Shown in pieces: positions 14,969-62,989 of a stretch of 64,000 bases of DNA. Each line of letters opens with the position of its first letter. Position 1 is the stretch's first letter. The stretch is from Chrysomallon squamiferum (lineage: Eukaryota; Animalia; Mollusca), in assembly GCA_012295275.1 (NCBI GenBank), contig CM022665.1, positions 19,716,001 to 19,780,000 on the forward strand, written 5' to 3'. Below the pieces are notes generated by a model that was given only the letters and a program-made list of their open reading frames with translations, was not told the DNA's origin and did no database searches. The translations under genes were made by a program, and so were the position numbers.

Positions 14969-15200
14969 TCATCTCCTCGAGTTTAATTTGTATTCTGTGT
15001 TCATAATGTAAGTTGTCACTTCAGCGAGGACCATCTCTCTGTATTTCAAGTCTGGTGCTAAGATGTTTTGAAGTGTGAACTCAGTTTTTAGTTCATCCAA
15101 TGTTTTGTGTAAGGTATTTTGTTCCTTGGCAAAAATTGTACAGTGAAACAGGTAGTGTTTCACGGTTTCAAAGAGTCCACAGCTGTAGTTGGGTGATGTG
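14969..15200 (-). mobile_element. Non-LTR retrotransposon (LINE) ORF2 C-terminal relic
   Basis: SPNYSCGLFETVKHYLFHC is a degenerate CCHC zinc knuckle (SPxCxCG..ETxxHxLxxC) followed by a typical ORF2 terminal helix region; no upstream RT, so 5'-truncated. Confidence 0.7.
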
Positions 15201-18200: not shown

Positions 18201-21200
18201 ATTACCATAATATAATAATATACTTACAATAAAATGTACCAGACATTCTACTTGAAATGGGCATATAAAAATAAGTGTTTTGTGAATGTTATATAATTCA
18301 CTACATAGAATACAAAGTTATGATTAAAAACAAGCCTGGCAAAGAGGCACTAATGAGGTTCTATCACACACCCCTACCTAGCAAAGAATATTTGCCCTAC
18401 TTTTAAATGTACGCAAATATTTGCATTTTCTTTTATTTTCTTGTATTTTCTTGAATATACATGTATATCATAACACAATTTACATCGAACATAGTTGTGG
18501 TTCAGTCTTTCTAGATGGGGAAACGGTACATCCATACTCCTTCAGGGTCAACAGGCCAGCCAGTAGTCTTCTCTTTTCTCTCTCAATATGTTCATTCAGT
18601 CTCTGGTAGGCCTTCTTCATGGGTCTTGTCATTCCACCTGCTGCCATCTGAAGGATGGTCACTTCAGTGTAGCTCTGCTGTGATGAACTTGTTCAAATGA
18701 GGCGTTGTCATCTTGGACAGCTTGATGTGTCATCCCTCCATGTTGGCCCATCCTTGGGTGTGGATCTAATTGTACAGTGAAACAGGTAGTGTTTCACGGT
18801 TTCAAAGAGTCCACAGCTGTAGTTGGGTGATGTGAAGTTTTCACATTTGAATCTGATTGGTCGAGTAGCTGATTCTGAGTTTGGTAAGATTGTTGTTGTG
18901 TAGTTTGTTGGTAAGTGTGATATTAGGTATTTTGGTGAGTGGTTTAATGCCATTTTTATTATTAGTGACAACTTTTGTGTTGTTATGTGATACAGCTTAA
19001 ACTACTAAATGACTATTCTCTATCCATTAGAGAACAAGAACTCAATATGGATAATTGTTTTATATATGTGTATATATATTACATAAACTAACCCTCAAGG
19101 GTAAGATATAGTTAAATCGTATGATTCAAACAATACGCTATAAAACCTAACAGCATTGATATGGAGTGACTCCACTTTGATGGATGCTATTGTTCTTATA
19201 TAGAAATCACTGATGTGCACTAATCCCTAGTACAATATGCATGATTATGGTATAGTCTAATTCAATAAGTAACTTGAAAAAATCATTCAATCATTCATGT
19301 TCATTTTATTGCATTTGGCAATAATTCGTCATTCATGATATCCATTATTTACCTTCAGATTATTGCATGTAACAATAATTTGTCAATCGTAACATTCATT
19401 TGTATACATAAATTCAAATTCATATGTAAATTATAATTGTTCAATATTATACATATTGGTCATTAAATTGCATATGGCAATAATTCATCATTCTTATAAA
19501 TTAGTTTAGTCATTCATAACTTTTGCTGAGCAAGGTCCAACTGCAGCATTCATTGATAATATAAACTAATTAAGCCTTGATGGTTACTTTCACTTTCTAA
19601 CTAATCTTTTAGTTATTAACATACGTTACCTTAGTTTTTAAACACAAGTATGTACCACAGAATAACACAAAAATATCCAACAGTAACCTGTTTTCTGTCA
19701 ATCAATATGTATGTTACATACAAAAAACATTTAAGCCATAATTACCGTTGCCTGAGTGGTCAGTTGTCTTGTGCAGACGACCTCAGACAACATGTCTCAA
19801 GCAGGGCAGCGATCAAAGAGATCTCGTTGAAAATGTAATCCAACTACTTCTAATCATCATGTGGGAGTTCAGTAAACACCTGCGGCCTTTCTGAATTTAC
19901 TTAGCGACTTTAATGCCCATTTTGAGTTTGTTAATCCCAGTGTTTCTTAATTTTATAAAATAACGGAACTTCCCCTAATTATATAATACAGCTTCTAAAT
20001 AGCCCATGTACATCTGCATATGCTCTGTTTAATTTTTGTGTATTAATTGGGTAAACATTTAAGAACTGTAAAAATATGAATTATAAACATGATTATACAT
20101 GATAGTTAAATATTACCATAATATAATAATATACTTACAATAAAATGTACCAGACATTCTACTTGAAATGGGCATATAAAAATAAGTGTTTTGTGAATGT
20201 TATATAATTCACTACATAGAATACAAAGTTATGATTAAAAACAAGCCTGGCAAAGAGGCACTAATGAGGTTCTATCACACACCCCTACCTAGCAAATAAT
20301 ATTTGCCCTACTTTTAAATGTACGCAAATATTTGCATTTTCTTTTATTTTCTTGTATTTTCTTGAATATACATGTATATCATAACACAATTTACATCGAA
20401 CATAGTTGTGGTTCAGTCTTTCTAGATGGGGAAACGGTACATCCATACTCCTTCAGGGTCAACAGGCCAGCCAGTAGTCTTCTCTTTTCTCTCTCAATAT
20501 GTTCATTCAGTCTCTGGTAGGCCTTCTTCATGGGACTTGTCATTCCACCTGCTGCCATCTGAAGGATGGTCACTTCAGTGTAGCTCTGCTGTGATGAACT
20601 TGTTCAAATGAGGCGTTGTCATCTTGGACAGCTTGATGTGTCATCCCTCCATGTTGGCCCATCCTTGGGTGTGGATCTAATCTGATAGTGAATAAAAAAA
20701 TAACTTGAGTAATTTCCTCTTGATGGATTGTGGGTATCAGTCTGTGGTCTGACTTAACACCTTCAAGTCTCCAAGAAATGAGTAGAGAGAAATCTATAGC
20801 ATCGTTTGTGTTCATAGTTGTAAACTTTTTTTGTTAGGTCATAATGAAACTCTAAAGGTATTAATAGTAGATAGACAACTGACTTTGCAACACTTCCAAT
20901 GAGCAGCATCTCTTTTACTACTCTTGATTGTGAACCTATGTCCCTGATACACTAAACTACACCCACCACGTGAATTCAGAATGAATTTCAAATTGACCTG
21001 TGCGTTTGCCAGCAGTGCATGATTTATGTATATATGCATCACTCACTTGGATAAACATGAATGTGAATGTGCTATCATGATACAACTAGCTATGGTTACT
21101 CATTTGAACATTTTTTCATGCGAGTTGTGATCAAGATATAAGATTACATCAGGAGATTATAATCTGATTATAACTGCATCATAAATCAAACCCTAAGTTA

Positions 21201-23838
21201 GTGGAACAGACCATAACCTCCTGTGTAATGGACTGTTACCATTAATCTGTTCAGGCATCTGGCAAAGTCGGGGTAAACCATTCATTGATAATACTAAACT
21301 AATTAAACCTAGATGGTTACTTTCACTTTCTAACTAATCTTTTAATTATTAACATACATTATCTTAGTTTTTAAACACAAGTATGTACCACAGAATAACA
21401 CAAAAATATCCAACAGTAAGCTATTTTCTGTCAATCAATATGTATGTTACATACAAAAAACATTTAAGCCATAATTACCGTTGCCTGAGTGGTCAGTTGT
21501 CTTGTGCAGACGACCTCAGACAACATGTCTCAAGCAGGGCACCGATCAAAGAGATCTCGTTGAAAATGTAATCCAACTACTTCTAATCATCATGTGGGAG
21601 TTCAGTAAACACCTGCGGCCTTTCTGAATTTACTTAGCAACTTTAATGCCCATTTTGAGTTTGTTAATCCCAGTGTTTCTTAATTTTATAAAATAACGGA
21701 ACTTCCCCTAATTATATAATACAGCTTCTAAATAGCCCGTGTACATCTGCATATGCTCTGTTTAATTTTTGTGTATTAATTGGGTAAACATTTAAGAACT
21801 GTAAAAATATGAATTATAAACATGATTATACATGATAGTTAAATATTACCATAATATAATAATATAGTACCAGACATTCTACTTGAAATGGGCATATAAA
21901 AATTAGTGTTTTGTGAATGTTATATAATTCACTACATAGAATACAAAGTTATGATTAAAAACAAGCCTGGCAAAGAGGCACTAATGAGGTTCTATCACAC
22001 ACCCCTACCTAGCAAAGAATATTTGCCCTACTTTTAAATGTATGCAAATATTTGCATTTTCTTTTATTTTCTTGTATTTTCTTGAATATACATGTATATC
22101 ATAACACAATTTACATCGAACATAGTTGTGGTTCAGTCTTTCTAGATGGGGAAACGGTACATCCATACTCCTTCAGGGTCAACAGGCCAGCCAGTAGTCT
22201 TCTCTTTTCTCTCTCAATATGTTCATTCAGTCTCTGGTAGGCCTTCTTCATGGGTCTTGTCATTCCACCTGCTGCCATCTGAAGGATGGTCACTTCAGTG
22301 TAGCTCTGCTGTGATGAACTTGTTCAAATGAGGCGTTGTCATCTTGGACAGCTTGATGTGTCATCCCTCCATGTTGGCCCATCCTTGGGTGTGGATCTAA
22401 TCTGATAGTGAATAAAAAATAACTTGAGTAATTTCCTCTTGATGGATTGTGGGTATCAGTCTGTGGTCTGACTTAACACCTTCAAGTCTCCAAGAAATGA
22501 GTAGAGAGAAATCTATAGCATCGTTGTGTTCATAGTTGTAAAGATTTCGCTAGGTCATAATGAAATCTCTCGAGGTATTAATAGTAGATAGACAACTGAC
22601 TTTGCAACACTTCCAATGAGCAGCATCTCTTTTACTACTCTTGATTGTGAACCTATGTCCCTGATACACTAAACTACACCCACCACGTGAATTCAGAATG
22701 AATTTCAAATTGACCTGTGCGTTTGCCAGCAGTGCATGATTTATGTATATATGCATCACTCACTTGGATAAACATGAATGTGAATGTGCTATCATGATAC
22801 AACTAGCTATGGTTACTCATTTGAACAGTTTTCATGCGAGTTGTGATCAAGATATAAGATTACATCAGGAGATTATAATCTGATTATAACTGCATCGTAT
22901 ACCCTAAGTTAGTGGAACAGACCATAACCTCCTGTGTAATGGACTGTTACCATTAATCTGTTCAGGCATCTGGCAAAGTCGGGGTAAACCATTGATAATA
23001 CTAAACTAATTAAACCTAGATGGTTACTTTCACTTTCTAACTAATCTTTTAATTATTAACATACGTTATCTTAGTTTTTAAACACAAGTATGTACCACAG
23101 AATAACACAAAAATATCCAACAGTAAGCTATTTTCTGTCAATCAATATGTATGTTACATACAAAAAACATTTAAGCCATAATTACCGTTGCCTGAGTGGT
23201 CAGTTGTCTTGTGCAGACGACCTCAGACAACATGTCTCAAGCAGGGCAGCGATCAAAGAGATCTCGTTGAAAATGTAATCCAACTACTTCTAATCATCAT
23301 GTGGGAGTTCAGTAAACACCTGCGGCCTTTCTGAATTTACTTAGCAACTTTAATGCCCATTTTGAGTTTGTTAATCCCAGTGTTTCTTAATTTTATAAAA
23401 TAACGGAACTTCCCCTAATTATATAATACAGCTTCTAAATAGCCCGTGTACATCTGCATATGCTCTGTTTAATTTTTGTGTATTAATTGGGTAAACATTT
23501 AAGAACTGTAAAAATATGAATTATAAACATGATTATACATGATAGTTAAATATTACCATAATATAATAATATACTTACAATAAAATGTACCAGACATTCT
23601 ACTTGAAATGGGCATATAAAAATAAGTGTTTTGTGAATGTTATATAATTCACTACATAGAATACAAAGTTATGATTAAAAACAAGCCTGGCAAAGAGGCA
23701 CTAATGAGGTTCTATCACACATCCCTACCTAGCAAAGAATATTTGCCCTACTTTTAAATGTACGCAAATATTTGCATTTTCTTTTATTTTCTTGTATTTT
23801 CTTGAATATACATCTATATCATAACACAATTTACATCA
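15136..23838. repeat. Young tandem segmental amplification (~1.72 kb unit plus a 3.63 kb duplication)
   Basis: Near-identical units start at ~15921, 17642, 19554, 21286 and 22993. Segment 15136-15920 recurs at ~18767-19553. Identical short ORFs recur in the ORF track. Confidence 0.97.
16767..17640 (-). mobile_element. FLYWCH/MULE (Mutator-like) transposase relic inside the repeat unit (copies also at ~18489-18766 truncated, ~20400-21280, ~22120-22990)
   Basis: KFILNSRGGCSLVYQGHRFTIKSSKRDAVHWKCCKVSCLSTINT resembles a FLYWCH finger. TILQMAAGG..MKKAYQRLNEHIEREKRRLLAG..TLKEY resembles the C-terminus of animal MULE transposases. The catalytic core is absent. Confidence 0.7.
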
Positions 23839-25059
23839 AATTAGTATAACGAACATAATTTTATATCACATCAACACACTGGTATGAAAGAATCTATCAT
23901 ATAATCTTGCAACAACATGAAAATATTTATATACATGAACATAATACATACATTTGTATGTAAAAAAACAGTTCTGTATCACACGAATACATATGATTGG
24001 TAAGATATGTTTCTATCTTGCAATAATATGAACATAATACATGCGTTATATATATATATATATATAATCTGTATATAAAGCAATTGACTATAGAGGTTAT
24101 AATTACTTTAATCAGATCCAGGAGTGCTACTCATTCGAATGATTTTGACGAAAATGGTTTTGAAGAATTTTCACTGTTGGCTTAGCCTGATTTATTATGT
24201 ATTGTGTTCATGTTATTACAAGATAGAAACTATCATACCAATCATATCATATATATTCATGTGGGCTGAGTGTCTGGCATTCCTGAAAAGATAGTTAATG
24301 TTTTACCATTTTAAATTGTATGCCAATTTTAAGAATGATGAAGTGAGTAAAGTATTATAGTAGTGTTTACTTCCTTTAACTGTTACATTTAACTTTCTAG
24401 TATTACATGGCAATATGGAGCAGATATTATACCTGTGCCACAGTGAACAGGAACAAGGTTACCACATATGACAAGCTGGGCAGAGCCAAAGTCCTTTGTT
24501 AGTTTGTAACTGTTTGAGTTTGTTTACATACAGAGTATGGTGGATAAATAATTTAATGGTTTTGTAATTAAATCTTACATCTGGCTCTGCAATCTGCAAA
24601 CTGATGAGTGGAGAGATTCTGGTCAGTTATCAGCATGTCAACAGGCTTATGTCATGGGTATTTAGAGTATGTTTTGTTGATAAGTTTGCTTCGTCGTGGT
24701 TTGTTTTTTCAATAGCTGATCTGATTTTTACTACCCGGAAACAGTTTAGTGACTGATCGGATTTTTGATCTCTGCAGAGACAAGCTTGGTCCCAAGGCAG
24801 ATGCGAAATATCACAACTTACTGGTTCCTTGTCACTTATTACTACTGGGACAAAAAGATTTAGCCCCAGCAAATAACTTGGAATGGCTACAACCTGTAGA
24901 TGGTTGACTCAGTCTGGCTGGTCCATCTCTTATCAACTGACCCAGAACTTGACTTGTGCTTAAAATTTGAACCATTTGTCCTACCACCCCTATCTATTGA
25001 AAGTCGATTACCAGGTGACTACAAAGCTTGATCACAATGGATTAAAGAGTAGTGATTGG

Positions 25060-43317: not shown

Positions 43318-46300
43318 CTGCAACAGAGAAATAACTCAAAATATTACAACCATAACAGTGTCCTTACAAATACACAGTAGCCCACCCTAGTTACAAATAC
43401 AGTGTCCTGCTCTACTTACTGATATATATGGTATACTTAAAACAGTGTCAGTGGTTCACTACAGTCAACAGTGTCAGTGGTTCACTACAGTCAACAATGT
43501 CAGTGGTTCACTACAGTCAACAGTGTCAGTGGTTCACTGCAGTCAACAGTGTCAGTGGTTCACTGCAGTCAACAGTGTCAGTGGTTCACTTTAGTCAACA
43601 GTGTCAGTGGTTCACAACAGTCGACAATGTCAGTGGTTCACAAGTCAACAATGTCAGTGGTTCACTGCAGTCAACAATGTCAGTGGTTCACAAGTCAACA
43701 ATGTCAGTGGTTCACAAGTCAACAATGTCAGTGGTTCACTGCAGTCAACAGTGTCAGTGGTTCACTACAGTCAAGAGTGTCAGTGGTTCACAAGTCAACA
43801 ATGTCAGTGGTTCACTGCAGTCAACAATGTCAGTGGTTCACAAGTCAACAATGTCAGTGGTTCACAAGTCAACAATGTCAGTGGTTCACTGCAGTCAACA
43901 GTGTCAGTGGTTCACTACAGTCAAGAGTGTCAGTGGTTCACAAGTCAACAATGTCAGTGGTTCACAAGTCAACAATGTCAGTGGTTCACTGCAGTCAACA
44001 GTGTCAGTGGTTCACTACAGTCAAGAGTGTCAGTGGTTCACAAGTCAACAATGTCAGTGGTTCACTACAGTCAACAGTGTCAGTGGTTCACTAGTCAACA
44101 ATGTCAGTGGTTCACTACAGTCAACAGTGTCAGTGGTTCACACAAAAGTCAAGTGTCAGTGGTTCACTACAGTCAACAGTGTCAGTGGTTCACAAGTTAA
44201 CAGTGCCAGTGGTTCACTACAGTCAACAGTGTCAGTGGTTCACAAGTTAACAGTGTCAGTGGTTCACTACAGTCAACAATGTCAGTGGTTCACTAGTCAA
44301 CAGTGTCAGTGGTTCACTAGTCAACAGTGTCAGTGGTTCACTACAGTCAAGAGTGTCAGTGGTTCACAAGTCAACAATGTCAGTGGTTCACTACAGTCAA
44401 CAGTGTCAGTGGTTCACTAGTCAACAATGTCAGTGGTTCACTACAGTCAACAGTGTCAGTGGTTCACAACAGTCAAGTGTCAGTGGTTCACTACAGTCAA
44501 CAGTGTCAGTGGTTCACAAGTTAACAGTGTCAGTGGTTCACTACAGTCAACAGTGTCAGTGGTTCACAAGTTAACAGTGTCAGTGGTTCACTACAGTCAA
44601 CAATGTCAGTGGTTCACTAGTCAACAGTGTCAGTGGTTCACTAGTCAACAGTGTCATTGGTTCACTAGTCAATAGTGTCAGTGGTTCACTACCACAGCTG
44701 TAACTAAACTGTGTTTGAGTCATTCACTGCAACAATGTCGGCAGACTTCAAATGATAACTGTAGACTTAAACAAATTCATTCAATGGATATTGTTTCTAT
44801 CAAAATAGAGATTTACATTTTATATTTTTTTAAATAAAATATTTTTACAATAAAATAAAAAACATAATCAATATTGCCAATTTTGTCAGTAGTCATTTGC
44901 CTCAGTGTAGTTACGGCCGTGACTGCAGACAACACTGAATGGTAGTCAATGATGTCAACAGTTCACCAGTCTGTGGTTAATGTTGGGGTGACAAAAACAA
45001 ACAATGTCCGTTAACGTACCACTTCAATGTTTGTGATTTTGTGCAGTTTCAGCAGCAGATCTGAGTCGAGCTGTCGAATCGATGAAAGACCTCGCGCAGC
45101 AGCACCAATACACCCAGCTGCTATCATCGATGGTGGATACAGCATAAATTTACAATCTGAAATTATTTTATATATCCCCATGTAAAAATACTGACATCAC
45201 AGATTTACAGTATTGAATTATTGTATACACCATATACAAATACTTATATCATAAATTTACAATCTGAAATTATTTTATATATCCCCATGTAAAAATACTG
45301 ACATCACAGATTTACAGTATTGAATTATTGTATACACCATATACAAATACTTATATCATAGATTTACTATCTGAAATTATTTTATATAATCATGTGAAAA
45401 TACTGATGGTGAATACAGCACAAAAATATGGTCTAAAATCATTTCAAATATTGGTATTTACAAATATTGATAGCATTGATTTTACACAAATAATTTCACA
45501 TATTATCATATAAAATATGACTGATTTAGTTGTAATGGTTACAACAAGAGTTATAATATTGACTTAGATGTATGACATTGTCCTAACATTCTGAAGGAAT
45601 TTAAAAAAAAAAAAAAATTGTTGACAAAATAATGTTAAGAAAAAGAAAAATCATAGAAGAGATGCATGTGAAAATCAGGTAATATTTTTGCAGGTTTTTC
45701 ATTTTATAATTTAACAGTCACCTTTTATTTGATAGCTAATTTATTTTCTGTATCTAAAGTGTACATATTCTAAAGTCATAATTATTATAAATAGCATTTT
45801 AATTTATTTTAAACAGTATTTTACTATAATGAATTTGTTAGTGTACATTACAATAAATAAAATTTTAATTTATTTTAAGTAATATTTTACTGTAACCACT
45901 CTTATTATACATTACAATAAACACTATTTTACAAACTTTTTTTTACTATTTTACTTTTTTGTAAATTATTTAACAGTATTTAAACAATATTTTATTGTTT
46001 TTCACAAACTATTTTACTGTTTTTCCAAAAATGAAAACATCAATGTTACCTGTACAACATAAAGCTATGAATGTCTGTGTGTGTCTTTTCAGTCTGTCGT
46101 AGTGGTCTTTGTCAAAAATCAGTCGGCTGAGAATCTGTTCAAGGAAATCGTGAGGAGTGATGGCTGACAAATCCCATTTCAGGTAATGAAGAACTAATGA
46201 TTCCATATCCTGCAAGAAACACAGCACAATTGTTTTATATGTGTCTTTGAATGTACCTTTACATCAGAATTGTTATATACATATCTTTGAATGTGGCTAT

Positions 46301-50429: not shown

Positions 50430-50617
50430 TCACGTCATTGTTGTGATGAGGTTCTCCGCATGTTCAGACTGAGAGGTGAGATCATCCTGAGGGATGTCGT
50501 GGATCTCCTCCACAAGAGTGCTGCCATCTAGCGATGACGACGACGTGGCGAGTTCTACGTCGTGTATGTTGTCGTCTCCAATAATCTCATCTTCACCTAA
50601 GGTCATGGTGTCATCAA
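50430..50617 (-). CDS. ZF gene last coding exon
   Basis: CTCTCAG|VDDTMTLGEDEIIGDDNIHDVEL...ENLITTMT*; acidic, phase 1 matches the previous exon. Confidence 0.8.
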
Positions 50618-51462
50618 CTGAGAGTAAAATTGTATATTAGTAATATTTTCTCAGTCATATCATTATTGAGCATAATTCTGAAATATCATTATTACTGAAA
50701 TTACTGAAAAAATAGAACATTACTAAACGTAATTCTGAACGATATCATCACTGATATTAAAACATAACAAAATGTAATTCTGAAATAACATTATTACTGA
50801 AATTAAAACATTACTAACGTAATTTTGAAATAATATTATCACTGAAATTAAAACATAAATAAACGTAATTCTGAAACAGCATTATTATTGAAATTAAAAC
50901 ATTACTAAACGTAATTCTGAAATAATATTATTACTGAAATTAAAACATTACTAAAGGTAATTCTGAACGATATCATCAATGAAATTAAAACATTACCAAA
51001 CATAACTCTGAAAAAAAGATTATACTGAAATTAAAATATTACTAAATGTAACTCTGAAATAATATCATCACTGCAATTAAAACATTACTAAATGTAATTC
51101 TGAAATAACATTATTACTGAAATTAAAATATTATTAAATGCAGTTCTGACATACCATTATCACTGAAAACACTAACAAATGAAACTTGAGGTCAGTGGAC
51201 ACAGTTATTCATGCTCAGTGAGATATAAGTAGCTTACTGACAGGTAACAAATTAACTGTCTGTGATATATATTATGGTTACCAAATACAATAATATTTTC
51301 AATATTCAAGTCCTTAAAAACAATCAGAGATCAGTGTTTGTTTGTTTAGTGTAATACACATTTTTTTTACTGGACGAGTATCACAGTCAAAATAAGTACA
51401 TTCCAACAATGTTTCCCGTTAAAACCCTTTTTTGGTATGTTTAGACTAGAAATTAACCACTT

Positions 51463-51509
<47 letters not shown>

Positions 51510-54500
51510 AGCTAAATTTATACATACACACATATACAAAAACAGATTTATACATACATACATGCAAAAACACACACGCACATACGCACACAAATACACA
51601 CATACCCATACAATTAACAAGAAGCACACATACACACATTAAATTACTGGAATAAAGAAAACAGTGTTAACGTTAGTGACTTTGACTGAAAAATTACACA
51701 GAGAATTAACTGACAAGGACATGTTAAAATTAATTCCGATCACAATGACGTAGTTTGCAGTCTTAATTTGAATACAGCTGTTTATAGAGAATATCTTTCT
51801 GCTTGGCTGAACAGGAATTTGCCAGTGGAACAAGCTGACCTAGTTAACGAGTGTGAGGTAATCAGGTACATCGTCTGCCCCACAATAGTACAACTAGGTC
51901 AGATAACTGCTTCATAGATCAGTCTGTACGTTAACTTCAAATACCTTTAATACAACGCTGATTAGTAAAAACTATACAGCGTGCAGTATAACGGGATTTT
52001 ATGATTATGAGAAAGATGTACAATTACTTAAACCAAATATGGCCGGATTTTGTGATAAAAGAAAGATGCCATAGTAGCTGTTTGGTATACCTGGTAAAAT
52101 ATATAATTGGAAATAACATAGGTATGAACTCAACTTTATTTACTCTCAGGTCATATGAGAATATGTAAATACAATTAATATATCAACATGGTGAGTTTAC
52201 AATAATGTAATTAATAATACAAATATACAGGGGGAAACTGAGGACTGATGAGCCACCCCATAATCTTCTGACTGTGAAATGGTAGTGAGATCTATCCACC
52301 ATGAGTGCAACTACTATACATGTGACTTTCACCCATATTGTTTAGAGAGGATTGGAGCAGTCCATCAACATACCAGTTAAAAAGAAGGTTACTGTCTACC
52401 TTGAGTAATTTTTGTGTTTTGGTTACAGTTTAATTTTAAGGTGATAATATATATTTCATAGATCCTGTAAAGGTTTGTGGTTTTTGTTTGTAATTTCTTT
52501 TGACTTCTAAATACAGTTTTAGTCGTGTGTTTCTATGTGTTTCTATGGCACACTGGGCTAACGTAATGAAGGTGGTGTTGGGGACCAATGAGCCGTTTTC
52601 TGTGGGGTTTGATGAGCCATGTTTGGGTCCCATGGGCAGGTGGCTTATTGGATCCAACTGCATTTCCAAGGAATGTATAGCTATAAAATAAATATTATTT
52701 GATAGATAATTAATTACTGGTATAACCTTTTTTCAAGATAGACTAGAGTGCTGAATCTGGTATAAAGAAAATGCCTAGGAAGAAAGAACAGAAGACAGTC
52801 TGAGGTCACTTCTCAGCAGAGCTAATAGAGAATACTGTTCACTACATCAGTAATCACACAACCAAAAGATAACGAAGACCAGTTTCTCAAAAACTCTCCC
52901 AGGCATACTATGTCATGTGCATTTGTTAACCTGTCCAGGAAGACATAAGCTCAGTCAAGGCAGATTTGATTTGGATGTCCTTGCTGAACCTGCTGTCCTT
53001 GCAAACTACCAAAAGACAGAAGGGAATCATACAATTCAGTGGCAATTTTGATGGATTCAATCTTGAATAAGATTCAGCATTAGTTTAGGACTCTTGAAAT
53101 TACACTGAAACCATGGAGTCAGTAGCAAAGTTTGCCCTAGACAGGAATGAGAAAAAAGAAGAAAAGATTTACATATATGTTGTTTCAAGCTAGTTTCACT
53201 ATTTGAGATCATGGCCCATAGGACCCCAATGGTTGGCTCATTGGTCAATTACCCTGTTTCGTAAGTGTCTCCCATAATGATGTTGTTGAAGGCAACCTAT
53301 CAAACTCTGTATTGCAATTGACAGCAATAATGCCTCTGTAAGCATCAACAGTTTTTCAAACAACAGCTATCAAGGTTTGGGTTAAATGGCCAAATTTTTA
53401 AAAAATGTCTCTTTGGTCCCCAGTTTCCCCTACAATATACCAATATATCAGCCAGAGGATTTGACAAAATTCATGACTAAATTACAGAAAACAGAATGTT
53501 TTTCTAAGGATACCAGCCTTCTTGGAGTTAAATAATTTATAAAACTTACGAATACTTGATTTAGACTGACAGAAAAATGGTAGATAACGGTTCCTTAAAC
53601 ATTGAGTTATCTGTCAGAACTGAACAAATGGTAAGTTAGGGTCTGATACCATGTTTTTCATGTTTAACTACAGTGACACTGGTTTTGTTCTGGATTAATG
53701 TGACTCACACAGACCTAGTGTGAATGTCTTGCTAAAAAAAAATTAGCTGATCTAGATGGATAAATAATAAATATATTAGAGCTAGAAAAACAACAGGACC
53801 ATTTTTTTAGCTAGTAAAGACAAGAAAATGCTCACATTTGTATCACATACACAAAGATAGTCTTAAACATACTGTTCACAATAAACTGAAATGAACTTCT
53901 ATTTTCTAAAAAAACAGTATCAAAAAAAAAAAAAATGTCAGTGGAGTAACAGACAGTGAAAAATAAATTATCAAAAATTAAAATACACCACTGTTTCATT
54001 CACTAAATAAATACATACTTTATTGCAGTATAAATAAATACATGGGTGCAGTATGAATAAATACAGTAGTGCATTATAAATAATATATTAGTGCAATATG
54101 AATAAATATAATTTATATAATATTAGTAAACACAGAAACAATAAACATTTTTACAACAAATAACAAAATATGTTTATTATACCTTCTAGGCCATCAACTT
54201 GTTCTACTGTTATGTCCACTTGCTGTCCATCCACTTGTTCCACTCTGATGTCCACCTGTTGTCCATCCACCTCTATCTGTTGAGGCTCCTGAAACTGCAG
54301 TTCTGGGGGGATCTGAATGGTAGCCCGAGTCACACGTCCGGTTGACGTGGCAATGGCCAAAGCCTGCTCAATCATTAACATATCACATGTCTGCTTCTGA
54401 TGTTCCTGAATAAAACATATAAATACATACATATATAATACATACACATACACACATATATACACATTTTATATAATAAATATGTACAGTACTGTAAAGT

Positions 54501-57500
54501 ATTATTAAGTTACATAAAGTACTGTAAATTATTATTAAGTTACGTAAAGTACTGTGAATTATTATTAAGTTACGTAAAGTACTGTGAATTATTATTAAGT
54601 TACGTAAAGTACTGTGAATTATTATTAAGTTACATAAAGTACTGTAAATTATTATTAAGTTACGTAAAGTACTGTGAATTATTATTAAGTTACGTAAAGT
54701 ACTGTGAATTATTATTAAGTTACATAAAGTACTGTAAATTATTATTAAGTTACGTAAAGTACTGTGAATTATTATTAAGTTACGTAAAGTACTGTGAATT
54801 ATTATTAAGTTACATAAAGTACTGTAAATTATTACTAAGTTATGTAAATTAATACCTGTAGGAGTACTTCTGATTTGAATGCAGAGCCACATCTCTCACA
54901 CACCAAACTCTTGAGATCTGCATGTTTTCGTTCAATGTGTTTTCTGATGTCTGTGAACGTGTAGCCAAAAAATCCACACACCCCACACTTGTAATCCTTC
55001 TGTCCATTATGTCTAAAAAAAAAAAAAAAAAAAACCTGCAACATCTAACTACAAAACAAAATTAATTAACATGTAAACAGTTACACGTGGCTGATAACAC
55101 ACAAACACACTCAAGTTTTCACTGATACCTTTTCACATGAAGTTCTTTATTCTTGATATGACGAAACTGTTTGCCACATACTTCACATGCGTGCTTTGGT
55201 TCTGCATGAATAAGCAGATGTTTTGAGATATCTGACCGTTCACAGCCTCTGCAAACAATAATAACAGTTGTCAAAAACAAGCATAAAAGCATGTTAATAA
55301 ACACTGTATTCTATATAAATTAACATATTTGCTGAATTAAAAATAGTTTTTAAATATTAATATAAATCTGTATTAGTCACCCATTGTTAAACAATGACTT
55401 GCCTCTTGTAATGTACATTATATGATTCATAGGTCATATACAACCATTAGTCTGACAAAGGTGTCATTGAAAATACTTGTTACTACATACATTTTATTGT
55501 TACATGTATGTCAGTGTTGTATACTGTATATTATTATTGTTACATGTATATCAGTGTTGTATACTGTATATTATTATTGTTACATGTATGTCAGTGTTGT
55601 ATACATCTTATTGTTACATGTATGTTAATGTTGTTACATTTTATTGTACATGTATGTTAATGTTGTTACATTTTACTGTTACATGTATCTTAGTGTTGTA
55701 TACACTTAAACTGTACCTATAATCGCAGTGAGGACATTTGAAAGGTTTCTCTGGTTCGTGTATTCGTAAGTGACGTTTCAAATGAGCTTTGCGTGTGAAC
55801 TTTTTTGAGCAGACTGTGCACTCAAAGAGAATTTCAGCTGGCATGTGAACCATCTTGATGTGCATCTTGAGTATGTACTGATCCTGAAATCAACAATCAG
55901 TAAGTCAAAATCTGAAATCACCAATCAGTAATACAATATCTGAAATCACCAACCAGTAATACAAAATCTGAAATCACCAACCAGTAATACAAAATTGGAA
56001 ATCGGAAATCAGTACAAAATCTGATATCAGAAATCAGTAATACAAAATCTGATATCACCAATCAGTAATACAAAATCTGAAATCATTGATCAGTAATACA
56101 AAATCTGATATCACCAATCAGTAATACAAAATCTGATATCACCAATCAGTAATACAAAATCTGAAATCACTGATCAGTAATAAAAAATCTGAAATCACCA
56201 ATCAGTAATACAAAATCTGATATCAGAAAACAGTAATACAAAATTTGAAATCACTGATCAGTAATACAAAATCTGAAATCACTGATCAGTAATACAAAAT
56301 CTGAAATCACTGATCAGTAATACAAAATCTGAAATCACCAATCAGTAATACAAAATCTGAAATCACCAACCAATAATACAAAGTCTGAAATCACCAGTCA
56401 GTAATACAAATCAACCCTAAACCTAACCTCACACAAAAGTATGCTTCACTACTCACCTTGAAGACTCTCCCACACATCTCGCTACTCACCTTGTAGACTT
56501 CCACATCTCACTACTCACCTTGTAGACTGCCACATGTCTCACTACTGACCTTGTAGACTCCCCCACATGTCTCACTACTCACAAATTGTAGACTGCCACA
56601 CATCTCACTACTCACCTTGTAGACTGCCACACGTCTCACTACTCACCTTGTAGACTGCCACACGTCTCACTACTCACCTTGTAGGATGCCACATGTCTCA
56701 CTACTCACCTTGTAGACTGCCACACATCTCACAACTCACCTTGTAGACTCTGCCACACATCTCACATGTACAGCCAACGACGCTGTGTCTCATCATGTGT
56801 CTCTTCATGACATAGCTGTGTTCTGCCTGGAAACCACAGACGTCGCAGTAACAACGTGGATGTGATTCCTGGAACAAGTTCAATGTTCATTTTACTTTTA
56901 TTTCTAGGCTGTGATACAAACAAAGTGTCTTGATTTTTAAAAACAAACATCATTTCCAAAGTATCATACAAACAAAATTTCCTGATTGAGATATAAGCAT
57001 GATTTCAAGACTGTAATACAAACATGATTTTCTAGATTGTAATACAAAAATGATTTTCTAGTGTCATACAAACATGATTTCTAGTCCATTATACAAACAT
57101 GATTTCTAGTCTGTAATACAAACATTTTATCAAGACTTTAGCATGGTATACTTAACAACTGAAAATGATAAATTTTAAAGAAAAGGCTAATTTACAGTAA
57201 AATATGAGAAATTTATTTTATTGTTGTTTATTATCTATGCCAAAACAGAATGAAAGCAAAAAAAAAGAAAAAGGCACCTTGAAGTGCTGATCAATGTCAT
57301 TCTTGTCGAAGCTCAGGTAGGTACAGCACTTACACTTGATCACCTGGTCCTGGTGTGTGCTCAGGTGCTCTTGATACTGGTGAGGAAAACAGGCCTGGAA
57401 ACCACACTCTGCACACTTCAGACGTTCCAAGTCTCCTTCAGATGCCTTTATCCCTGCAGTGAATAAAGAATATTAAATTTTATTATTTAATGCTTGTTGA

Positions 57501-60500
57501 AAAATATCAGCAATATAAGCAAAGAACACAGATGTGATACCTGTTAATTTATAGAAATTAATTTTTGTGTAAAACTAATTTGTTTTTTCAAATACTGTTT
57601 ATTTCTTTGTTACAGAATATTGTTTATTTGTTATTACAAAATATTATTTATTTATTATTACAAAGTATTATTTATTTGTTATTACAAAATACTGTTTAAT
57701 TATTATTACAAATTATTAATTATTATTACATTTGTTTTGGTTATTAAAAATACTGTTTATTTCTTATTGCAAAGTATTATTTATTTATTATTATAAAAGA
57801 TTATTTGTTATTATAAAATATTGTTTATTTTTATTACAAAACATTATTTATTTATTATTACACAGTATTATTTATTGTTATACCTGTACCTATATCAGTT
57901 GGTTCCGTTTTCTATGTACGTGTTTGTGGGTTGTAGTGGGTTTTTTTTAAATTGTTTTTTTTTTAATGTCAACGTGGATTTTTCTATCTGTATCAGTGTT
58001 TCTATCAACATTGGTAGGTTTGTTTTCTATTTGTATTAATGTTTATATCAACACTGCAAGTTTTGTTTTCTATCTCTGTTAGTGTTTCAGTGTTGCTGGT
58101 TGTGTTTACTACACCAGAGGTTATCTACAACCTAACAATGAAAACTGTTTTCTGTGTTTCCTTGACCCCGTTCACTATCAGAGGTCAGATGACTGAAATA
58201 AGTGAGCAGCCACCCACACACATTTTGTAAACCCATTCACAGACTCTGACCTAATCTACAGTCTGTATCTGCCTGTCAGCCACCATACAGGATGTGTACT
58301 GATAGTCTGTTTCAGAAAACTGGTCACACTGAACAGTTAGCAGACGACAATCTAAGTGTACTCTTCACGATTGGAGATTTTAACAACCCTCTGCCATACA
58401 TCTTTGATACACAATCAGTGTGGTTGTTAGTGGGAACAATTACATCTTAGATACACAGTCGTTGTCTTTTTTTTAGTGGGTTAGAGTTTTTAGTTGGTTA
58501 AGGTTTCTGAGTGGGTTAAGTTTATTAGTGGGTTAGGGTTGTCAGAGGGTTAGGGTTGTTAGTGGATTAGGGTTGTCAGAGGGTTAAGTCTGTTAGTGGA
58601 TTATGGTTATCAGAGGTTAAGGTTGTCAGAGGGTTAGGGTTGTCAGAGGGTTAAGGTTGTCAGAGGGTTAAGGTTCTTAGTGGGTTAAGATTGTAAATGG
58701 GTTAAGGTTTTTAGAGGGTTAAGGCTTTTAGTGGGTTAAGGCTTTTAGTGGGTTAAGGTTGTTAGTGGGTTAAGATTGTTAGTGGGTTAGGATTGTCAGA
58801 GGGTTATGTTTGTCAGATGGTTACGATTGTTAGTGGGTTAGGGTTGTCAGAGGGTTAGGGTTGTCAGAGGGTTAAGGTTGTCAGAGGGTTAAGGTTCTTA
58901 GTGGGTTAAGATTGTAAATGGGTTAAGGTTTTTAGAGGGTTAAGGCTTTTAGTGGGTTAAGGCTTTTAGTGGGTTAAGGTTGTTAGTGGGTTAAGATTGT
59001 AAATGGGTTAAGGTTTTTAGAGGGTTAAGGCTTTTAGTGGGTTAAGGCTTTTAGTGGGTTAAGGTTGTTAGTGGGTTAAGATTGTTAGCGGGTTAGGATT
59101 GTCAGAGGGTTATGTTTGTCAGATGGTTACGACTGTTAGTGGGTTAGGGTTGTCAGAGGGTTAGGGTTGTCAGAGGGTTAAGGTTGTTAATGGGTTACGA
59201 GTGTTAGTGGGTTAAGGTTTTCAGAGGGTTATGGCTTTTAGTGGGTTAAGGTTGTCAGAGGGTTAAGATTGTTAAAGATTGTTAGTGGGTTAAGGTTGTC
59301 AGTGGGTTAAGGTTGTAAGAGGGTTAAGATTGTTAAAGATTGTTAGTGGGTTAAGGTTGTCAGAGGGTTCGGGTTGTCAGAGGGTTAAGTTTGTTAGTGG
59401 CTTAAGATTGTCAGAGGATTAGGGTTGTTGGAAGGTTAAGGTTGTTAGTGGGTTAAGATATTTAGTCAGTTAAGATTGTCATAGGGTTACGGTTGTTAGT
59501 GGGTTAAGGTTGTCAGAGGGTTTAAATTGTCAGAGGGTTAAGGTTGTCAGAGGGTTTAAATTGTCAGAGGGTTAAGACTGTTAGTGGATTAAGGTTGTTA
59601 GTGTGTTAAGGTTGTCAGAGTGTTAAGGTTGTTAGTGGGTTAAAATTGTTAGTGGGTCAGAGTGTTAGGGTTGCCAGTGCGTTTCTTATACCCTCTGATC
59701 ACTGAGACAATCACACACAAAAACTTTTAATAAGCTACTTATTTATTAATCTTCAACAATATTTATCAGTTTATAAGAATATTCAACAATATTTATCACA
59801 CTTATAGCAATACCAGTGTTACCAATGTCACTAGTATTTATAGAAATTAACAATATTATTATTATTTAAAGAAACTATCATTATTAATATTTATAGAAAT
59901 CACCAGTATTACTAGTATTTATAGAAATGATCAAAATTATGAGTAGTTATTTAATTACCAATGTTATTAGTATTTATGAAAGAATTTACTGAAATTACCT
60001 TTAAATCCAATATTGATATGAATAACAAATCACAATGTCATCAATATTTATTTAGTTATTAATGTTATTAGTATGAAAACAGTGTAATTATATATAGTGA
60101 AAATGACATATCATTTGTGTTCTATGAATGTGACATACAAGTGATGTGAACTGAGTGTAGTAAACTTACCTATTTTCACCGGATCTTTCTTGGTCAACAT
60201 GGACAACATGTTGTCAGGTATCTGGATGATTGTTGCTTGTTTTGACAGTGCCCCTCCTTCTGACTTTTCTGAAATATCATTAATTACAAGACTGAAACAA
60301 AGTCTGATGTACATGTAAATATGATGCTCCATGTTTTTATTTTAATTTATTATTATTATTTTCTTCTTCTTCTTCTTCTTCTTAAACAAATTCAGGACAA
60401 AAGTGTTTAATGAAATGAAAGTTTTATGCATATTTAATCGTGTGTATTAGGATGCTTTATCATAACATACTATTAAAATGTACTGAGTTATATTACAATC

Positions 60501-62430
60501 TTCATCTTATAACTCCTAGAAATACCAAATAAATAAAAAAAAACATTCCACCAGTAATTTTAAACACAATTTACGGAAGTCTTGCAGTTACTGGTCATTA
60601 TATATAATACAGTATATGATGTTTGTAACATAACAGACAGCAATGCAGTGTTATGTGTAACTATGAAAATAATAGATAGCAATGTAGTGTTATGTGTAAC
60701 TATGAAAATAATAGATAGCAATGCAGTATTAGTGTAACTGAAAATAATTACATTAATACTGCATTGCTATCTGTTATTTTCATAGTTACACATAACACTG
60801 CATTGCTATCTATAAAGCAATGCAGTGTTATGTGTAACCATGAAAATAATAGATAACAATGCAATATTATGTGTAATTATGAAAATAATAGATAACAATG
60901 CAATGTTATGTTAACTATGAAAATAATAGATAGCTATGCAGTGTTATCTGTAACTATGAAAATAATTAATAGCAATGCATTGTTACATCCAAAATACAGT
61001 GTGGAATATGTCTGTTTATTGATGATTTTCATTAACATAGAAAATAACAGTTTAGCACAAATTGCCAAAATGGTACACAAAGGATACCTATACAGCTAAA
61101 ACAGATACTGCATTCCTATATTTTAATGCTAACATACCACTTCATATTCAGGACATACCAAAGCTTAAAAAACATATAACTTTGTTAAGATATGTCAGAG
61201 CAGTGCACGTAGATCATATGCCTATAATGCCTATAATATGCAGTATACAGAATCATTAAAAATGTTTGTGTGCAGTTAATAACTTTGATTCTAGACATCA
61301 AAATGTTTTAGACATAATTCAATGGTTTAGTAACAATGATATCTAGTTATAGTAGAGAAACAATATGTTTACTTAGTTATAGTGGAGTAACAATGATATA
61401 TTTATCTAGGTACAGTGGAGTAACATATGCTATATTTATCTAGTTATAGTAGAGTAACAATGATATGTTTATCTAATTATGAAGTAACAATGATATGCTT
61501 ATCTAATTCTGGAGTATCAGTGATATATTTATCTAGTTATGGTGGAGTAATGTGGTGCTAAACTTCAGAATCATATCTTACTGACTGATTTCATTATGTA
61601 CATAACAGAACATTATAAATCACACAAGAACTCTCTGTATTATCAATAAAACAAACAATTTAAAGCACAGGCCTTTCTCTGAACTGGGCTTTCAGCTTTC
61701 ATGTGTGAATGCAGAGACGTACCTAGACCTTCAACAGCTTCAGTGGCATCAACATCTGTCACAACAGTATCAGTCTGAAGAGTGGCTGGCACCAGCATGC
61801 TGCTGTCTAAAACTGGAAAAAATAAATAAAAATAAGAATAAAAAAACATTTCATGAACTGTAAAAATAAACACTATAAAAGTATTTGTTTGAACTGTTAA
61901 CTGTATGCATAAAGTATCTGAACTGTTAGCTTATGTATAAAGTATTTAAACTTGGCTGTTTTTACATGACAATATATTTAAATATATAAAGTATCTGAAC
62001 TATTAGCTGTATGTATGAAGTATCTGAATGTTAGCTGCATGTGTAAATACTTACTGGAACTGTTGGCTGTGTCTATGGTGAGAGGGGGGTTTTCAGCAGT
62101 GAAGTCTGGGGGCTTCACATCTGTTGTGTCTGTAACTTTGGGTACAATGTGAGGCAGAGTTTTTGCCTGTTGCTGAAAAGCCTGCAGACTGTGAAGACCC
62201 TGTGGAAACAGATATAAAAATTAATTTGAGAAACACTGCTATAGTATCACCTATCTGGAAGATGAATAATATGAACAATTTAACATGTTTTTGTTTTTAA
62301 CTCACCTGCAGGTTTGCCATCATCAGCGTCTGTCCATTAGCAGTGGGGATGATGACTGCAGGTATTGAATTTGTTGTTGTCTGTCCAGGAGGTGGGTAAC
62401 GCCGTGGCCGTCCACGTCCTCTTTTTACTA
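50430..62430 (-). CDS. AT-hook + C2H2 zinc-finger protein, 3' part (11 exons, ~538 aa in window; 5' end upstream of the window)
   Basis: Exons 62430-62306, 62199-62055, 61812-61723, 60268-60170, 57453-57278, 56868-56740, 55883-55717, 55248-55129, 55012-54856, 54405-54183 and 50617-50430, all GT-AG and phase-compatible in one open frame. Contains AT-hook KRGRGRPRR, eight C2H2 fingers plus one C2HC-type finger (linker HEPEKPFKC), and an acidic C-terminus. Confidence 0.9.
50670..51170. repeat. 46-bp minisatellite next to the last-exon acceptor of the ZF gene
   Basis: aattctgaaataatattattactgaaattaaaacattactaaacgt, ~11 copies. Confidence 0.9.
52231..53430 (+). mobile_element. Pogo/Tc1-mariner-like DNA transposon relic in the last intron of the ZF gene
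   Basis: TIRs GGGGAAACTGAGGAC / GTCCCCAGTTTCCCC with TA after the right end. Repeated internal motif GACCAATGAGCC occurs in both orientations. Decayed ORF start MPRKKEQKT at 52771 resembles the pogo N-terminus. Confidence 0.7.
54183..54405 (-). CDS. ZF gene penultimate exon
   Basis: TTCAG|EHQKQTCDMLMIEQALAIA...EQVDGQQVDI repeat...DGLE|GTATA. Confidence 0.88.
54488..54845. repeat. 30-bp minisatellite (~12 copies)
   Basis: aagtactgtgaattattattaagttacgta with two variants; source of the spurious ORF 54383-54892. Confidence 0.95.
54856..55012 (-). CDS. ZF gene exon (fingers 8-9)
   Basis: poly-T TAG|HNGQKDYKCGVCGFFGYTFTDIRKHIERKH...CERCGSAFKSEVLLQ|GTATT. Confidence 0.92.
55129..55248 (-). CDS. 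ZF gene exon (fingers 6-7)
   Basis: TTGCAG|GCERSDISKHLLIHAEPKHACEVCGKQFRHIKNKELHVK|GTATC. Confidence 0.92.
55717..55883 (-). CDS. ZF gene exon (fingers 4-6)
   Basis: TTTCAG|DQYILKMHIKMVH...CTVCSKKFTRKAHLKRHLRIHEPEKPFKCPHCDY|GTACA. Confidence 0.92.
55884..56410 (-). repeat. 28-bp tandem array of the 3' splice site (~18 copies)
   Basis: Sense unit ATTTTGTATTACTGATTGGTGATTTCAG; the last copy is the in-frame acceptor at 55886-55884. Confidence 0.93.
56451..56766 (-). repeat. 29-33-bp tandem array of the exon end + 5' splice site (10 copies including the exonic one)
   Basis: Sense unit GTGAGATGTGTGGCAGTCTACAAG|GTGAGTA. Confidence 0.93.
56740..56868 (-). CDS. ZF gene exon (finger 3 and start of 4)
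   Basis: TTCCAG|ESHPRCYCDVCGFQAEHSYVMKRHMMRH...CEMCGRVYK|GTGAGT. Confidence 0.9.
57278..57453 (-). CDS. ZF gene exon (fingers 1-2)
   Basis: CTGCAG|IKASEGDLERLKCAECGFQACFPHQYQEHLSTH...CKCC...HFK|GTGCC. Confidence 0.88.
58470..59680. repeat. 17-bp telomere-like (GGGTTA-containing) minisatellite, ~70 copies
   Basis: Units GGGTTA(A/G)GGTTGTCAGA / GGGTTAAGGTTGTTAGT; higher-order duplication with 221-bp offset (58631 vs 58852). Confidence 0.93.
60170..60268 (-). CDS. ZF gene exon
   Basis: TTTCAG|KSEGGALSKQATIIQIPDNMLSMLTKKDPVKI|GTAAGT. Confidence 0.8.
60635..60980. repeat. 39-bp minisatellite with an internal inverted segment
   Basis: aatgcagtgttatgtgtaactatgaaaataatagatagc; reverse-complement copy at ~60756-60812. 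Confidence 0.88.
61330..61550. repeat. ~33-bp degenerate minisatellite
   Basis: tctagttatagtggagtaacaatgatatattta-like units. Confidence 0.8.
61723..61812 (-). CDS. ZF gene exon
   Basis: TTCCAG|LDSSMLVPATLQTDTVVTDVDATEAVEGL|GTACG; an alternative in-frame AG lies 6 nt downstream. Confidence 0.75.
62055..62199 (-). CDS. ZF gene exon
   Basis: CACAG|GLHSLQAFQQQAK...DTANSS|GTAAGT; phases fit neighbours. Confidence 0.8.
62306..62430 (-). CDS. ZF gene exon (AT-hook)
   Basis: TACAG|..VKRGRGRPRRYPPPGQ...MMANLQ|GTGAG. Confidence 0.85.
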
Positions 62431-62989
62431 CTGTAAGACACACTCACACATATCACTTTACATAAACACATGTGACTTTATATAAACACATATTATTTTA
62501 CATAAACACAGTATTTTACATAAAAACATTACTTTACAAACACATGTTACTTTATATAAACACATTTTATTTTATATAAATATGTTACTTTAAATAAACC
62601 GATTACTTTACATCAATACAAGTTACTTAACACAAACATGTTACTCAACACAAATATGTATTACATATTATTACATAAAAAGGTATTAAACTATTACATA
62701 AACACATTATATATCATTATATGAACTCCCTTCACATTAGTTCATTATCACATCTACAACTATCATACACTACACAAACATATCATCATTTATAACCAAA
62801 AAACCACCAGAAAATTTTATCTTAAATATTTTATGAAAATCCACAATGAATTTTTTGGTTTTCAAAGTAAAGTAACATAACAGCTGAACAAAAATGCTTT
62901 CACACAACAGGTTTGTAATGTGCTACCCTTTGATATACAGAAAAGAACACTTTATTTCGTAAACTGAAAGGGGTTGCCCTTTAGTTTAA

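What the first reader, a model, noticed from the sequence alone, without database searches (positions are those of the whole stretch)
55884..56766. An intron built almost entirely from tandem copies of its own two splice sites
Seen: the 856-nt intron 56739-55884 of the ZF gene begins with ~9 extra tandem copies of the exon 3' end plus donor, most with a perfect AAG|GTGAGT. After a ~40-nt spacer come ~18 copies of a 28-nt unit ending in TTTCAG or TATCAG with a branch-point-like CTGAT. The outermost donor/acceptor pair rebuilds finger 4 (CEMCGRVYK|DQYILKMHIKMVH). The next donor adds 31 nt and the most distal adds 283 nt, both frameshifting. Inference: the spliceosome must ignore dozens of near-identical decoys, or the arrays act as a copy-number-tunable unproductive-splicing/NMD rheostat, or as a substrate for stepwise splicing.
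Basis: partly seen in the sequence, partly recalled or inferred. Interest (0 to 1): 0.8.

Follow-up and report, generated by a model that had tools for sequence, protein, structure and literature searches.

The report
Intron built from its own splice sites
In a conserved zinc-finger gene of what is likely a snail, 96% of one intron is tandem copies of its own start signal (9 extra) and end signal (18 extra), assembled RNA joins the outermost, real pair, and the copies are likely tolerated repeats of a known kind ("mirage") rather than a control switch, with the end-signal copies predicted to fold into a hairpin.

Summary
The 856-nt intron (56739-55884, minus strand) holds 9 extra donor units, a 37-nt spacer and 18 extra 28-nt acceptor units; together they make up 96% of it. 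RNA contigs of two runs (one study) join the outermost donor to the outermost acceptor, rebuilding a finger conserved in homologs. DNA runs of three studies hold the array ends next to the exons, so the arrays are not an artefact. The intron position is ancient, and a distant ortholog has no arrays. The kind is known: amphioxus 'mirages' and the human F7/CBS/IFI6 donor minisatellites. This scan has already found many on other genomes. Two features are unusual. Both ends of one intron are amplified, enclosing a bypassed, canonical-looking 72-nt core intron. And 17 of 18 acceptor copies are predicted to self-fold more strongly than the real one, suggesting hairpin masking. Most likely a slippage product tolerated by positional splice-site choice. 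Interest 0.33.

The parts
56740..56868 (-). Upstream exon (129 nt): C2H2 finger 3 and first half of finger 4
   Evidence: Translation; covered by RNA contigs of X8 and X9 and joined to the previous exon
56733..56765 (-). Authentic donor unit (33 nt: 26 exon + 7 intron bases); used donor at 56739
   Evidence: RNA loose ends show exon end 56740 joined to the next exon
56450..56732 (-). Nine decoy donor units (29-33 nt); donors at 56708, 56677, 56646, 56615, 56582, 56549, 56518, 56489, 56456
   Evidence: DNA contigs of X1 and X5 hold the first units
56413..56449 (-). 37-nt unique spacer; with the innermost donor and acceptor it forms a canonical-looking 72-nt core intron (56456-56385), the inferred ancestral intron
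   Evidence: ancestry is inference
55912..56412 (-). Eighteen decoy acceptor units (28 nt; 16 of 18 keep the AG), predicted to fold into a long imperfect hairpin
   Evidence: DNA contigs of X2 and X5 hold the first units
55884..55911 (-). Authentic acceptor unit: branch-like YTNAY motifs at -22 and -18, T at -10, CAG|G
   Evidence: used in RNA contigs
55717..55883 (-). Downstream exon (167 nt): second half of finger 4, finger 5, start of finger 6
   Evidence: Pfam zf-C2H2 and zf-H2C2_2; RNA; homolog search
50430..62430 (-). Host gene: 11 modelled exons, 538 aa open frame, C-terminal half of a conserved multi-C2H2 protein; the 5' part lies upstream and was not modelled
   Evidence: 83% identical over 533 aa to P0017, Gigantopelta aegis

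Best explanation
The intron consists of two independent tandem arrays, one copied from its own donor boundary and one from its own acceptor, which likely grew by replication slippage or unequal crossing-over from a short (about 72-nt) ancestral intron; assembled RNA joins the outermost pair, and the copies are likely tolerated passengers ('mirage' minisatellites) rather than a regulatory device. Shown: the anatomy, the outer-outer junction in RNA, the array ends in DNA runs, and the ancient intron position. Inferred: (1) origin at short microhomologies, GTGA at both ends of the 33-nt donor unit and GAT at both ends of the 28-nt acceptor unit; (2) donor choice by position, the first site taken as in human F7, because the decoy donors are not weaker; (3) acceptor choice by exon definition, helped by the real site's better branch motifs, G at +1 and weaker predicted self-pairing; (4) any leak is frameshifted and would be cleared by NMD, which makes the arrays cheap to carry.
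For: RNA contigs of X8 and X9 pass from exon end 56740 directly to 55883 and carry the authentic exon-end variant, not the decoy one. Finger 4 has no insertion in 34 of 34 homologs that matched my motif, of 88 returned. The acceptor position is the same in 4 of 4 ortholog loci examined, none with an array there; L002 holds the whole 500-nt intron without one. About 45% (4653 of 10382 bp) of this gene's modelled intron sequence is minisatellite, so arrays arise often here. 8 of 9 decoy donors match the donor consensus at 8 of 11 positions against 7 for the real one, and are not predicted to be less accessible, except one or two. Microhomologies. Precedents: only the most upstream donor is used in F7, LMNB2 and PDGF (PMC1557585); mirages do not disturb regular splicing (PMC3087553).
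Against: The RNA evidence is two low-depth contig sets (word depth 3-7) from one study; they show the main product only. In IFI6 and CBS the nearest pseudo-donors are used as well, so leak is plausible. The folding bias of the decoy acceptors is more than pure neutrality predicts. The branch motif is weak evidence: 4 of the gene's 9 other true acceptors lack a YTNAY at -18 or beyond. No close relative's intron could be read.
Confidence: 0.68

Rival explanations
1. Structure-masked mirage: the acceptor array could expand only because a founding copy gained self-complementarity. The decoy branch points and AGs are buried in a long RNA hairpin, and this masking is required for correct splicing.
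For: 17 of 18 decoy units self-fold more strongly than the real unit; the exception has lost its AG. The T>G at -10, carried by 14 of 18 decoys, is the most stabilising of 78 single changes to the real unit, and the consensus unit gains nothing over the real one under DNA parameters. The 3 variants shared by five units are all stabilising and the 13 rarer ones all destabilising singly, against 18 of 78 at random; a null keeping the sharing pattern reached the real energy in 1 of 100 runs (16 full-length decoys of 18). Column-permuted arrays: 0 of 100.
Against: Prediction only. The shared variants are two events and the founding change is one. The consensus unit alone is only mildly unusual (3 of 60 permutations; 17 of 400 random triple variants). 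The far-edge units 56357 and 56385 also fold weakly, and edge units are known to escape homogenisation. The last 5 nt of the real acceptor are not more open (0.02-0.11) than many decoys, and 56217 is nearly as open over -14..-1. Palindrome-perfecting mutation and hairpin-driven slippage (recalled) would give the same pattern without selection. A 46-nt array full of TTTCAG words in the last intron does not fold (48 of 60).
Confidence: 0.17
2. Copy-number-tunable unproductive splicing: some transcripts use decoy sites, gain a premature stop and are degraded, so array length tunes the dose of the transcription factor.
For: 169 of 170 donor x acceptor pairings are frameshifted or hold a stop. Decoy donors are consensus-strong. 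Nearest pseudo-donors are used in IFI6 and CBS. One X5 contig hints at a different third donor unit.
Against: The RNA contigs seen carry the outer junction. There are no arrays in the four distant ortholog loci. Stops are expected in any AT-rich repeat. F7 and amphioxus cases show no such regulation.
Confidence: 0.08
3. Nested, inside-out removal: the 72-nt core intron is spliced first and the outer pair is used in a later step.
For: The innermost pair forms a canonical-looking 72-nt intron; the end product would be the same as the one seen in RNA. Intrasplicing is described (search listing).
Against: There are no ratchet points: no acceptor copy is followed by GT. Intermediates would stall as PTC products. 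The EJC is reported to repress re-splicing (PMC8234774, listing only). F7 minigenes use only the first donor.
Confidence: 0.05
4. Assembly artefact.
For: No read or contig laid spans a whole array, so exact copy numbers rest on the assembly alone.
Against: DNA contigs of X1, X2 and X5 (three studies) run from the exons into the arrays, with collapsed repeat pieces at up to about 3.6-fold the flank depth. X5 differs from the window at two bases, so it is another haplotype. Unit variants are structured, not identical.
Confidence: 0.02

Closest known systems
Amphioxus 'mirage' minisatellites (Adh3, globins BflGb6/BflGb9, troponin C, PGBD5; PMC3087553 section 16 read, PMC3902484 passages; the original Canestro 2002 paper was not held)
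   Same: Tandem copies of a gene's own intron/exon boundary, at either end; many but not all copies keep AG/GT; regular splicing unaffected; edge units diverge.
   Different: Here both ends of one intron are amplified and fill 96% of it; the acceptor unit has no exon part; the animal is a mollusc; the acceptor copies are predicted to self-pair.
Human donor-spanning VNTRs: F7 IVS7 37-bp, CBS IVS13, IFI6 (6-16), LMNB2, PDGF (PMC1557585; abstract, Introduction, one Results section and Discussion read)
   Same: The first unit spans the exon/intron border, near-identical pseudo-donors follow, and the most upstream donor is used.
   Different: The unit here is mostly exon-derived (26 exon + 7 intron nt, against 4 + 33 in F7), and it is paired with an acceptor array in the same intron; polymorphism and latent function of the copies were not shown here.
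Poison-exon / AS-NMD switches and recursive or intra-splicing (recalled; search listing only)
   Same: Alternative products would carry premature stops; nested splice sites exist.
   Different: No use of inner sites seen, no conservation in distant orthologs, no AG|GT ratchet points.

Membership tests
Mirage minisatellite | Tandem repeat spanning an exon-intron boundary (donor array) | tested here: met
   The unit is 26 exon + 7 intron bases, 10 units
Mirage minisatellite | Tandem repeat spanning an exon-intron boundary (acceptor array) | tested here: not met
   The array ends exactly at the AG (55884) with no exon bases in the copies, only a 3-nt microhomology. It abuts the boundary, as PMC3902484 also describes for PGBD5, so it works like a mirage without being one in the strict sense
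Mirage minisatellite | Many but not all copies keep GT/AG signals | tested here: met
   9 of 9 keep GT (7 perfect); 16 of 18 keep AG
Mirage minisatellite | Regular splicing is kept | tested here: met
   Outer-outer junction in RNA contigs of 2 of 2 RNA runs laid; main product only
Mirage minisatellite | Length instability between haplotypes or cells | tested here: inconclusive
   An X5 contig continues with a unit-1-like third donor unit where the window has a different one; contigs collapse repeats
Mirage minisatellite | Boundary units excluded from homogenisation | tested here: met
   Mean distance real-to-decoy 4.83 against decoy-to-decoy 3.65; a modest difference
F7-type donor VNTR | Most upstream of several equivalent donors is used | tested here: met
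F7-type donor VNTR | Pseudo-donors become active when the real one is mutated | not testable with these tools
   Needs minigenes
Regulated AS-NMD switch | Alternative products carry premature stops | tested here: met
   169 of 170 pairings
Regulated AS-NMD switch | Unproductive isoform is made and stabilised by NMD block | not testable with these tools
   Only low-depth contigs were available
Regulated AS-NMD switch | Element conserved in orthologs | tested here: inconclusive
   Absent in 4 of 4 distant loci, only one with the whole intron; no close relative readable
Recursive splicing | Acceptor immediately followed by a regenerated GT donor | tested here: not met
   0 of 18 acceptor copies are followed by G

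The most novel reading that the evidence does not exclude
A two-ended, self-silencing mirage. A short intron expanded twelvefold by copying both of its splice sites. The acceptor side could expand only after a single change made the copies fold into a long RNA hairpin that hides their branch points and AGs, and later variants that spread are those that keep the hairpin. RNA structure would thus act as the filter that decides which splice-site repeats can grow, and a perfect-looking 72-nt inner intron is bypassed.
Probability: 0.2. Interest if true: 0.58.

Novelty: new variant of a known kind. Interest (0 to 1): 0.33.

Why it matters
As it stands, it extends a known oddity (mirage and F7-type splice-site minisatellites) to a case with both ends of one intron amplified. 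That makes it a ready-made natural minigene for an old question: how one donor of 10 and one acceptor of 17 are picked when proximity and intron definition point to the inner pair. If hairpin masking is real, it would give a mechanism for the silence of acceptor-side mirages, which the papers read here do not offer, and a rule for which repeats can expand at splice sites.

Tried and rejected
No whole genome is held, so there is no genome-wide count of such arrays. No RNA contig entered a decoy unit, but contigs drop rare variants and only 2 decoys per side were in the stretches laid, so this is not used as evidence of absence. Runs X10 and X11 (organism B) hold next to none of the words: no evidence. 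Contig depth was not used as copy number. Pairing between the donor and acceptor arrays (looping out) is not beyond shuffles (-164.8 against -148 to -171 in 10 shuffles): rejected. Plain shuffle z-scores (-7.1; -12.6) are inflated by the repeat and were not used. Structural masking of decoy donors is not predicted in general (donor unit 35 of 60). Creation of the intron by the duplication is rejected: the position is shared with distant orthologs. 'Arrays pile up at splice sites in this gene': 5 edges against 2.5 expected (p 0.04), but 3 against 1.2 (p 0.10) without this intron (14 hand-picked arrays): not established. The script crashed after 12 rows, so five arrays were not tested. 54 of 88 homologs did not match my finger-4 motif and were not assessed; 76 of 80 loci (69% identity or less, likely paralogs) were not examined. 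PMC10078293 passages were uninformative. A two-ended or hairpin-masked case was not found in searches or in scan notes. The library is partial, and the original mirage paper was not held, so it may contain such a case. No supplements were read; the mirage alignments in those of PMC3087553 and PMC3902484 could bear on the comparison.

Full report
Observation. The minus-strand intron 56739-55884 is 856 nt. It opens with nine extra copies of a unit made of the exon's last 26 bases and the first 7 intron bases: 33 nt in the real copy, 29-33 nt (five of 31) in the others, with 7 of 9 reading AAG|GTGAGT. After a 37-nt spacer come 18 extra copies of the last 28 intron bases; 16 of 18 keep the AG. The arrays fill 819 of 856 nt. 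TRF reports both, shuffles never approach the motif counts, and it is the only donor cluster in the window.

Host gene. Eleven exons from 62430 to 50430 give a 538-aa open frame with C2H2 fingers. The family is conserved in molluscs, annelids, brachiopods, nemerteans and chelicerates. The closest protein is from the snail Gigantopelta aegis, 83% over 533 aa, so the animal is likely a snail. The junction lies inside finger 4; 34 of 88 homologs matched my motif for it and all 34 have no insertion. Four ortholog loci from metagenome contigs (of 80 fetched) have an acceptor at the same codon and no array there. L002 holds the whole 500-nt intron, free of TRF hits. The intron is therefore ancient and the arrays are lineage-specific at that depth.

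RNA and DNA. Nine runs from three studies hold the region; the two RNA runs hold about the exon share of its words (0.21-0.22). Contigs of both RNA runs (one study, word depth 3-7) leave the upstream exon at 56740 and continue into the exon at 55883. From the other side they carry the real exon end, which differs from the decoys. This shows the outer-outer product; it cannot measure leak. DNA contigs of X1, X2 and X5 run from the exons into the first array units, with collapsed repeat pieces. X5 differs from the window at two bases and may have a different third donor unit. The arrays are real; their exact length rests on the assembly, because only three units per side were in the stretches laid.

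How it likely arose. About 45% of the gene's modelled intron sequence is minisatellite. The donor unit is bounded by a GTGA microhomology between the exon and intron +8, and the acceptor unit by GAT at -28 and at the exon start. Removing the extra copies leaves a canonical-looking 72-nt intron. I infer two independent slippage-seeded expansions of a short intron.

How it likely works. Only 1 of 170 donor x acceptor pairings keeps an open frame, so leak would be NMD substrate (inference). Decoy donors are as strong as the real one (8 of 9 match the recalled consensus at 8 of 11 positions, against 7) and mostly not predicted to be hidden. Donor choice must therefore be positional, as shown for human F7, where only the first of several identical donors is used and the next takes over when it is mutated (PMC1557585). 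On the acceptor side the real unit has branch-like motifs at -22 and -18, T at -10 and G at +1. Only 2 of 18 decoys have such a motif at -18 or beyond without an intervening AG, though 4 of the gene's 9 other acceptors lack one too.

Predicted folding. 17 of 18 decoy units self-fold more strongly than the real one, the exception having lost its AG. The -10 change is the most stabilising of 78, the three widely shared variants stabilise while 13 rarer ones do not, and a sharing-preserving null reached the real energy in 1 of 100 runs. Against this: these are two or three mutation events; the far-edge units also fold weakly; the real AG itself is not predicted to be more open; the consensus alone is only mildly unusual, and another TTTCAG-rich array in the gene does not fold; and palindrome-perfecting mutation (recalled) could give the pattern without selection. 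I give required masking about 0.2.

Comparison. Tandem copies of exon-intron boundaries are named 'mirages' in amphioxus, occur at both kinds of boundary and do not disturb splicing (PMC3087553 section 16; PMC3902484 passages). Donor-spanning minisatellites are listed for F7, CBS, IFI6, LMNB2 and PDGF. The donor array meets the definition; the acceptor array abuts the boundary and so works like a mirage without strictly being one. Earlier scan notes report many such arrays in other genomes and led me to the mirage papers; none was noted for this genome. I found no two-ended or hairpin-masked case in ten searches, but the original mirage paper was not held.

Verdict. Real and striking, but of a known kind and most likely tolerated (0.68). 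The rheostat (0.08) and nested-splicing (0.05) readings lack support. The two-ended layout and the predicted masking make it a useful test object. New variant of a known kind; interest 0.33.

Noticed in passing
window 15100-23900: About five tandem copies of a 1.72-1.91 kb unit, mostly 97-100% identical; three of them hold an open frame like 17196-17408 (minus), which matches the FLYWCH zinc finger (E 3e-6). Possibly an amplified transposon remnant or exon array.
   Followed up: partly
window 50700-51168: 46-nt minisatellite in the last intron of the ZF gene, with about 16 T-rich acceptor-like words ending 82 nt before the real acceptor; it is not a copy of that acceptor and is not predicted to fold.
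   Followed up: partly
window 54484-54848, 55487-55704, 61890-62047, 62446-62659: Four more minisatellites of the same gene have an edge 7-15 nt from a splice site; enrichment is not significant without intron 6. The 20-nt unit at 55497 folds more than 60 of 60 permutations on the sense strand.
   Followed up: partly
window 58473-59701: 70 copies of a strand-skewed 17-nt unit in intron 4, preceded on the minus strand by an acceptor-like site near 59702 and a short in-frame reading that stops inside the array; could be a cryptic terminal exon lacking the fingers.
   Followed up: no
window 54191-54270: Coding tandem repeat (VDGQQVDI-like, twice) in the ZF gene where Gigantopelta P0017 has one copy.
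   Followed up: partly
window 55878: A second AG lies 6 nt inside the downstream exon, and the exon's first 7 bases recur in four decoy units; RNA contigs use 55884.
   Followed up: no
window 55758 and 56883: Allelic differences: a third-codon-position change at 55758 in X9 and X5, and an intronic change at 56883 in X5.
   Followed up: yes
window 43441-44691: 25 copies of a 50-nt unit (89% matches), outside the modelled gene.
   Followed up: no
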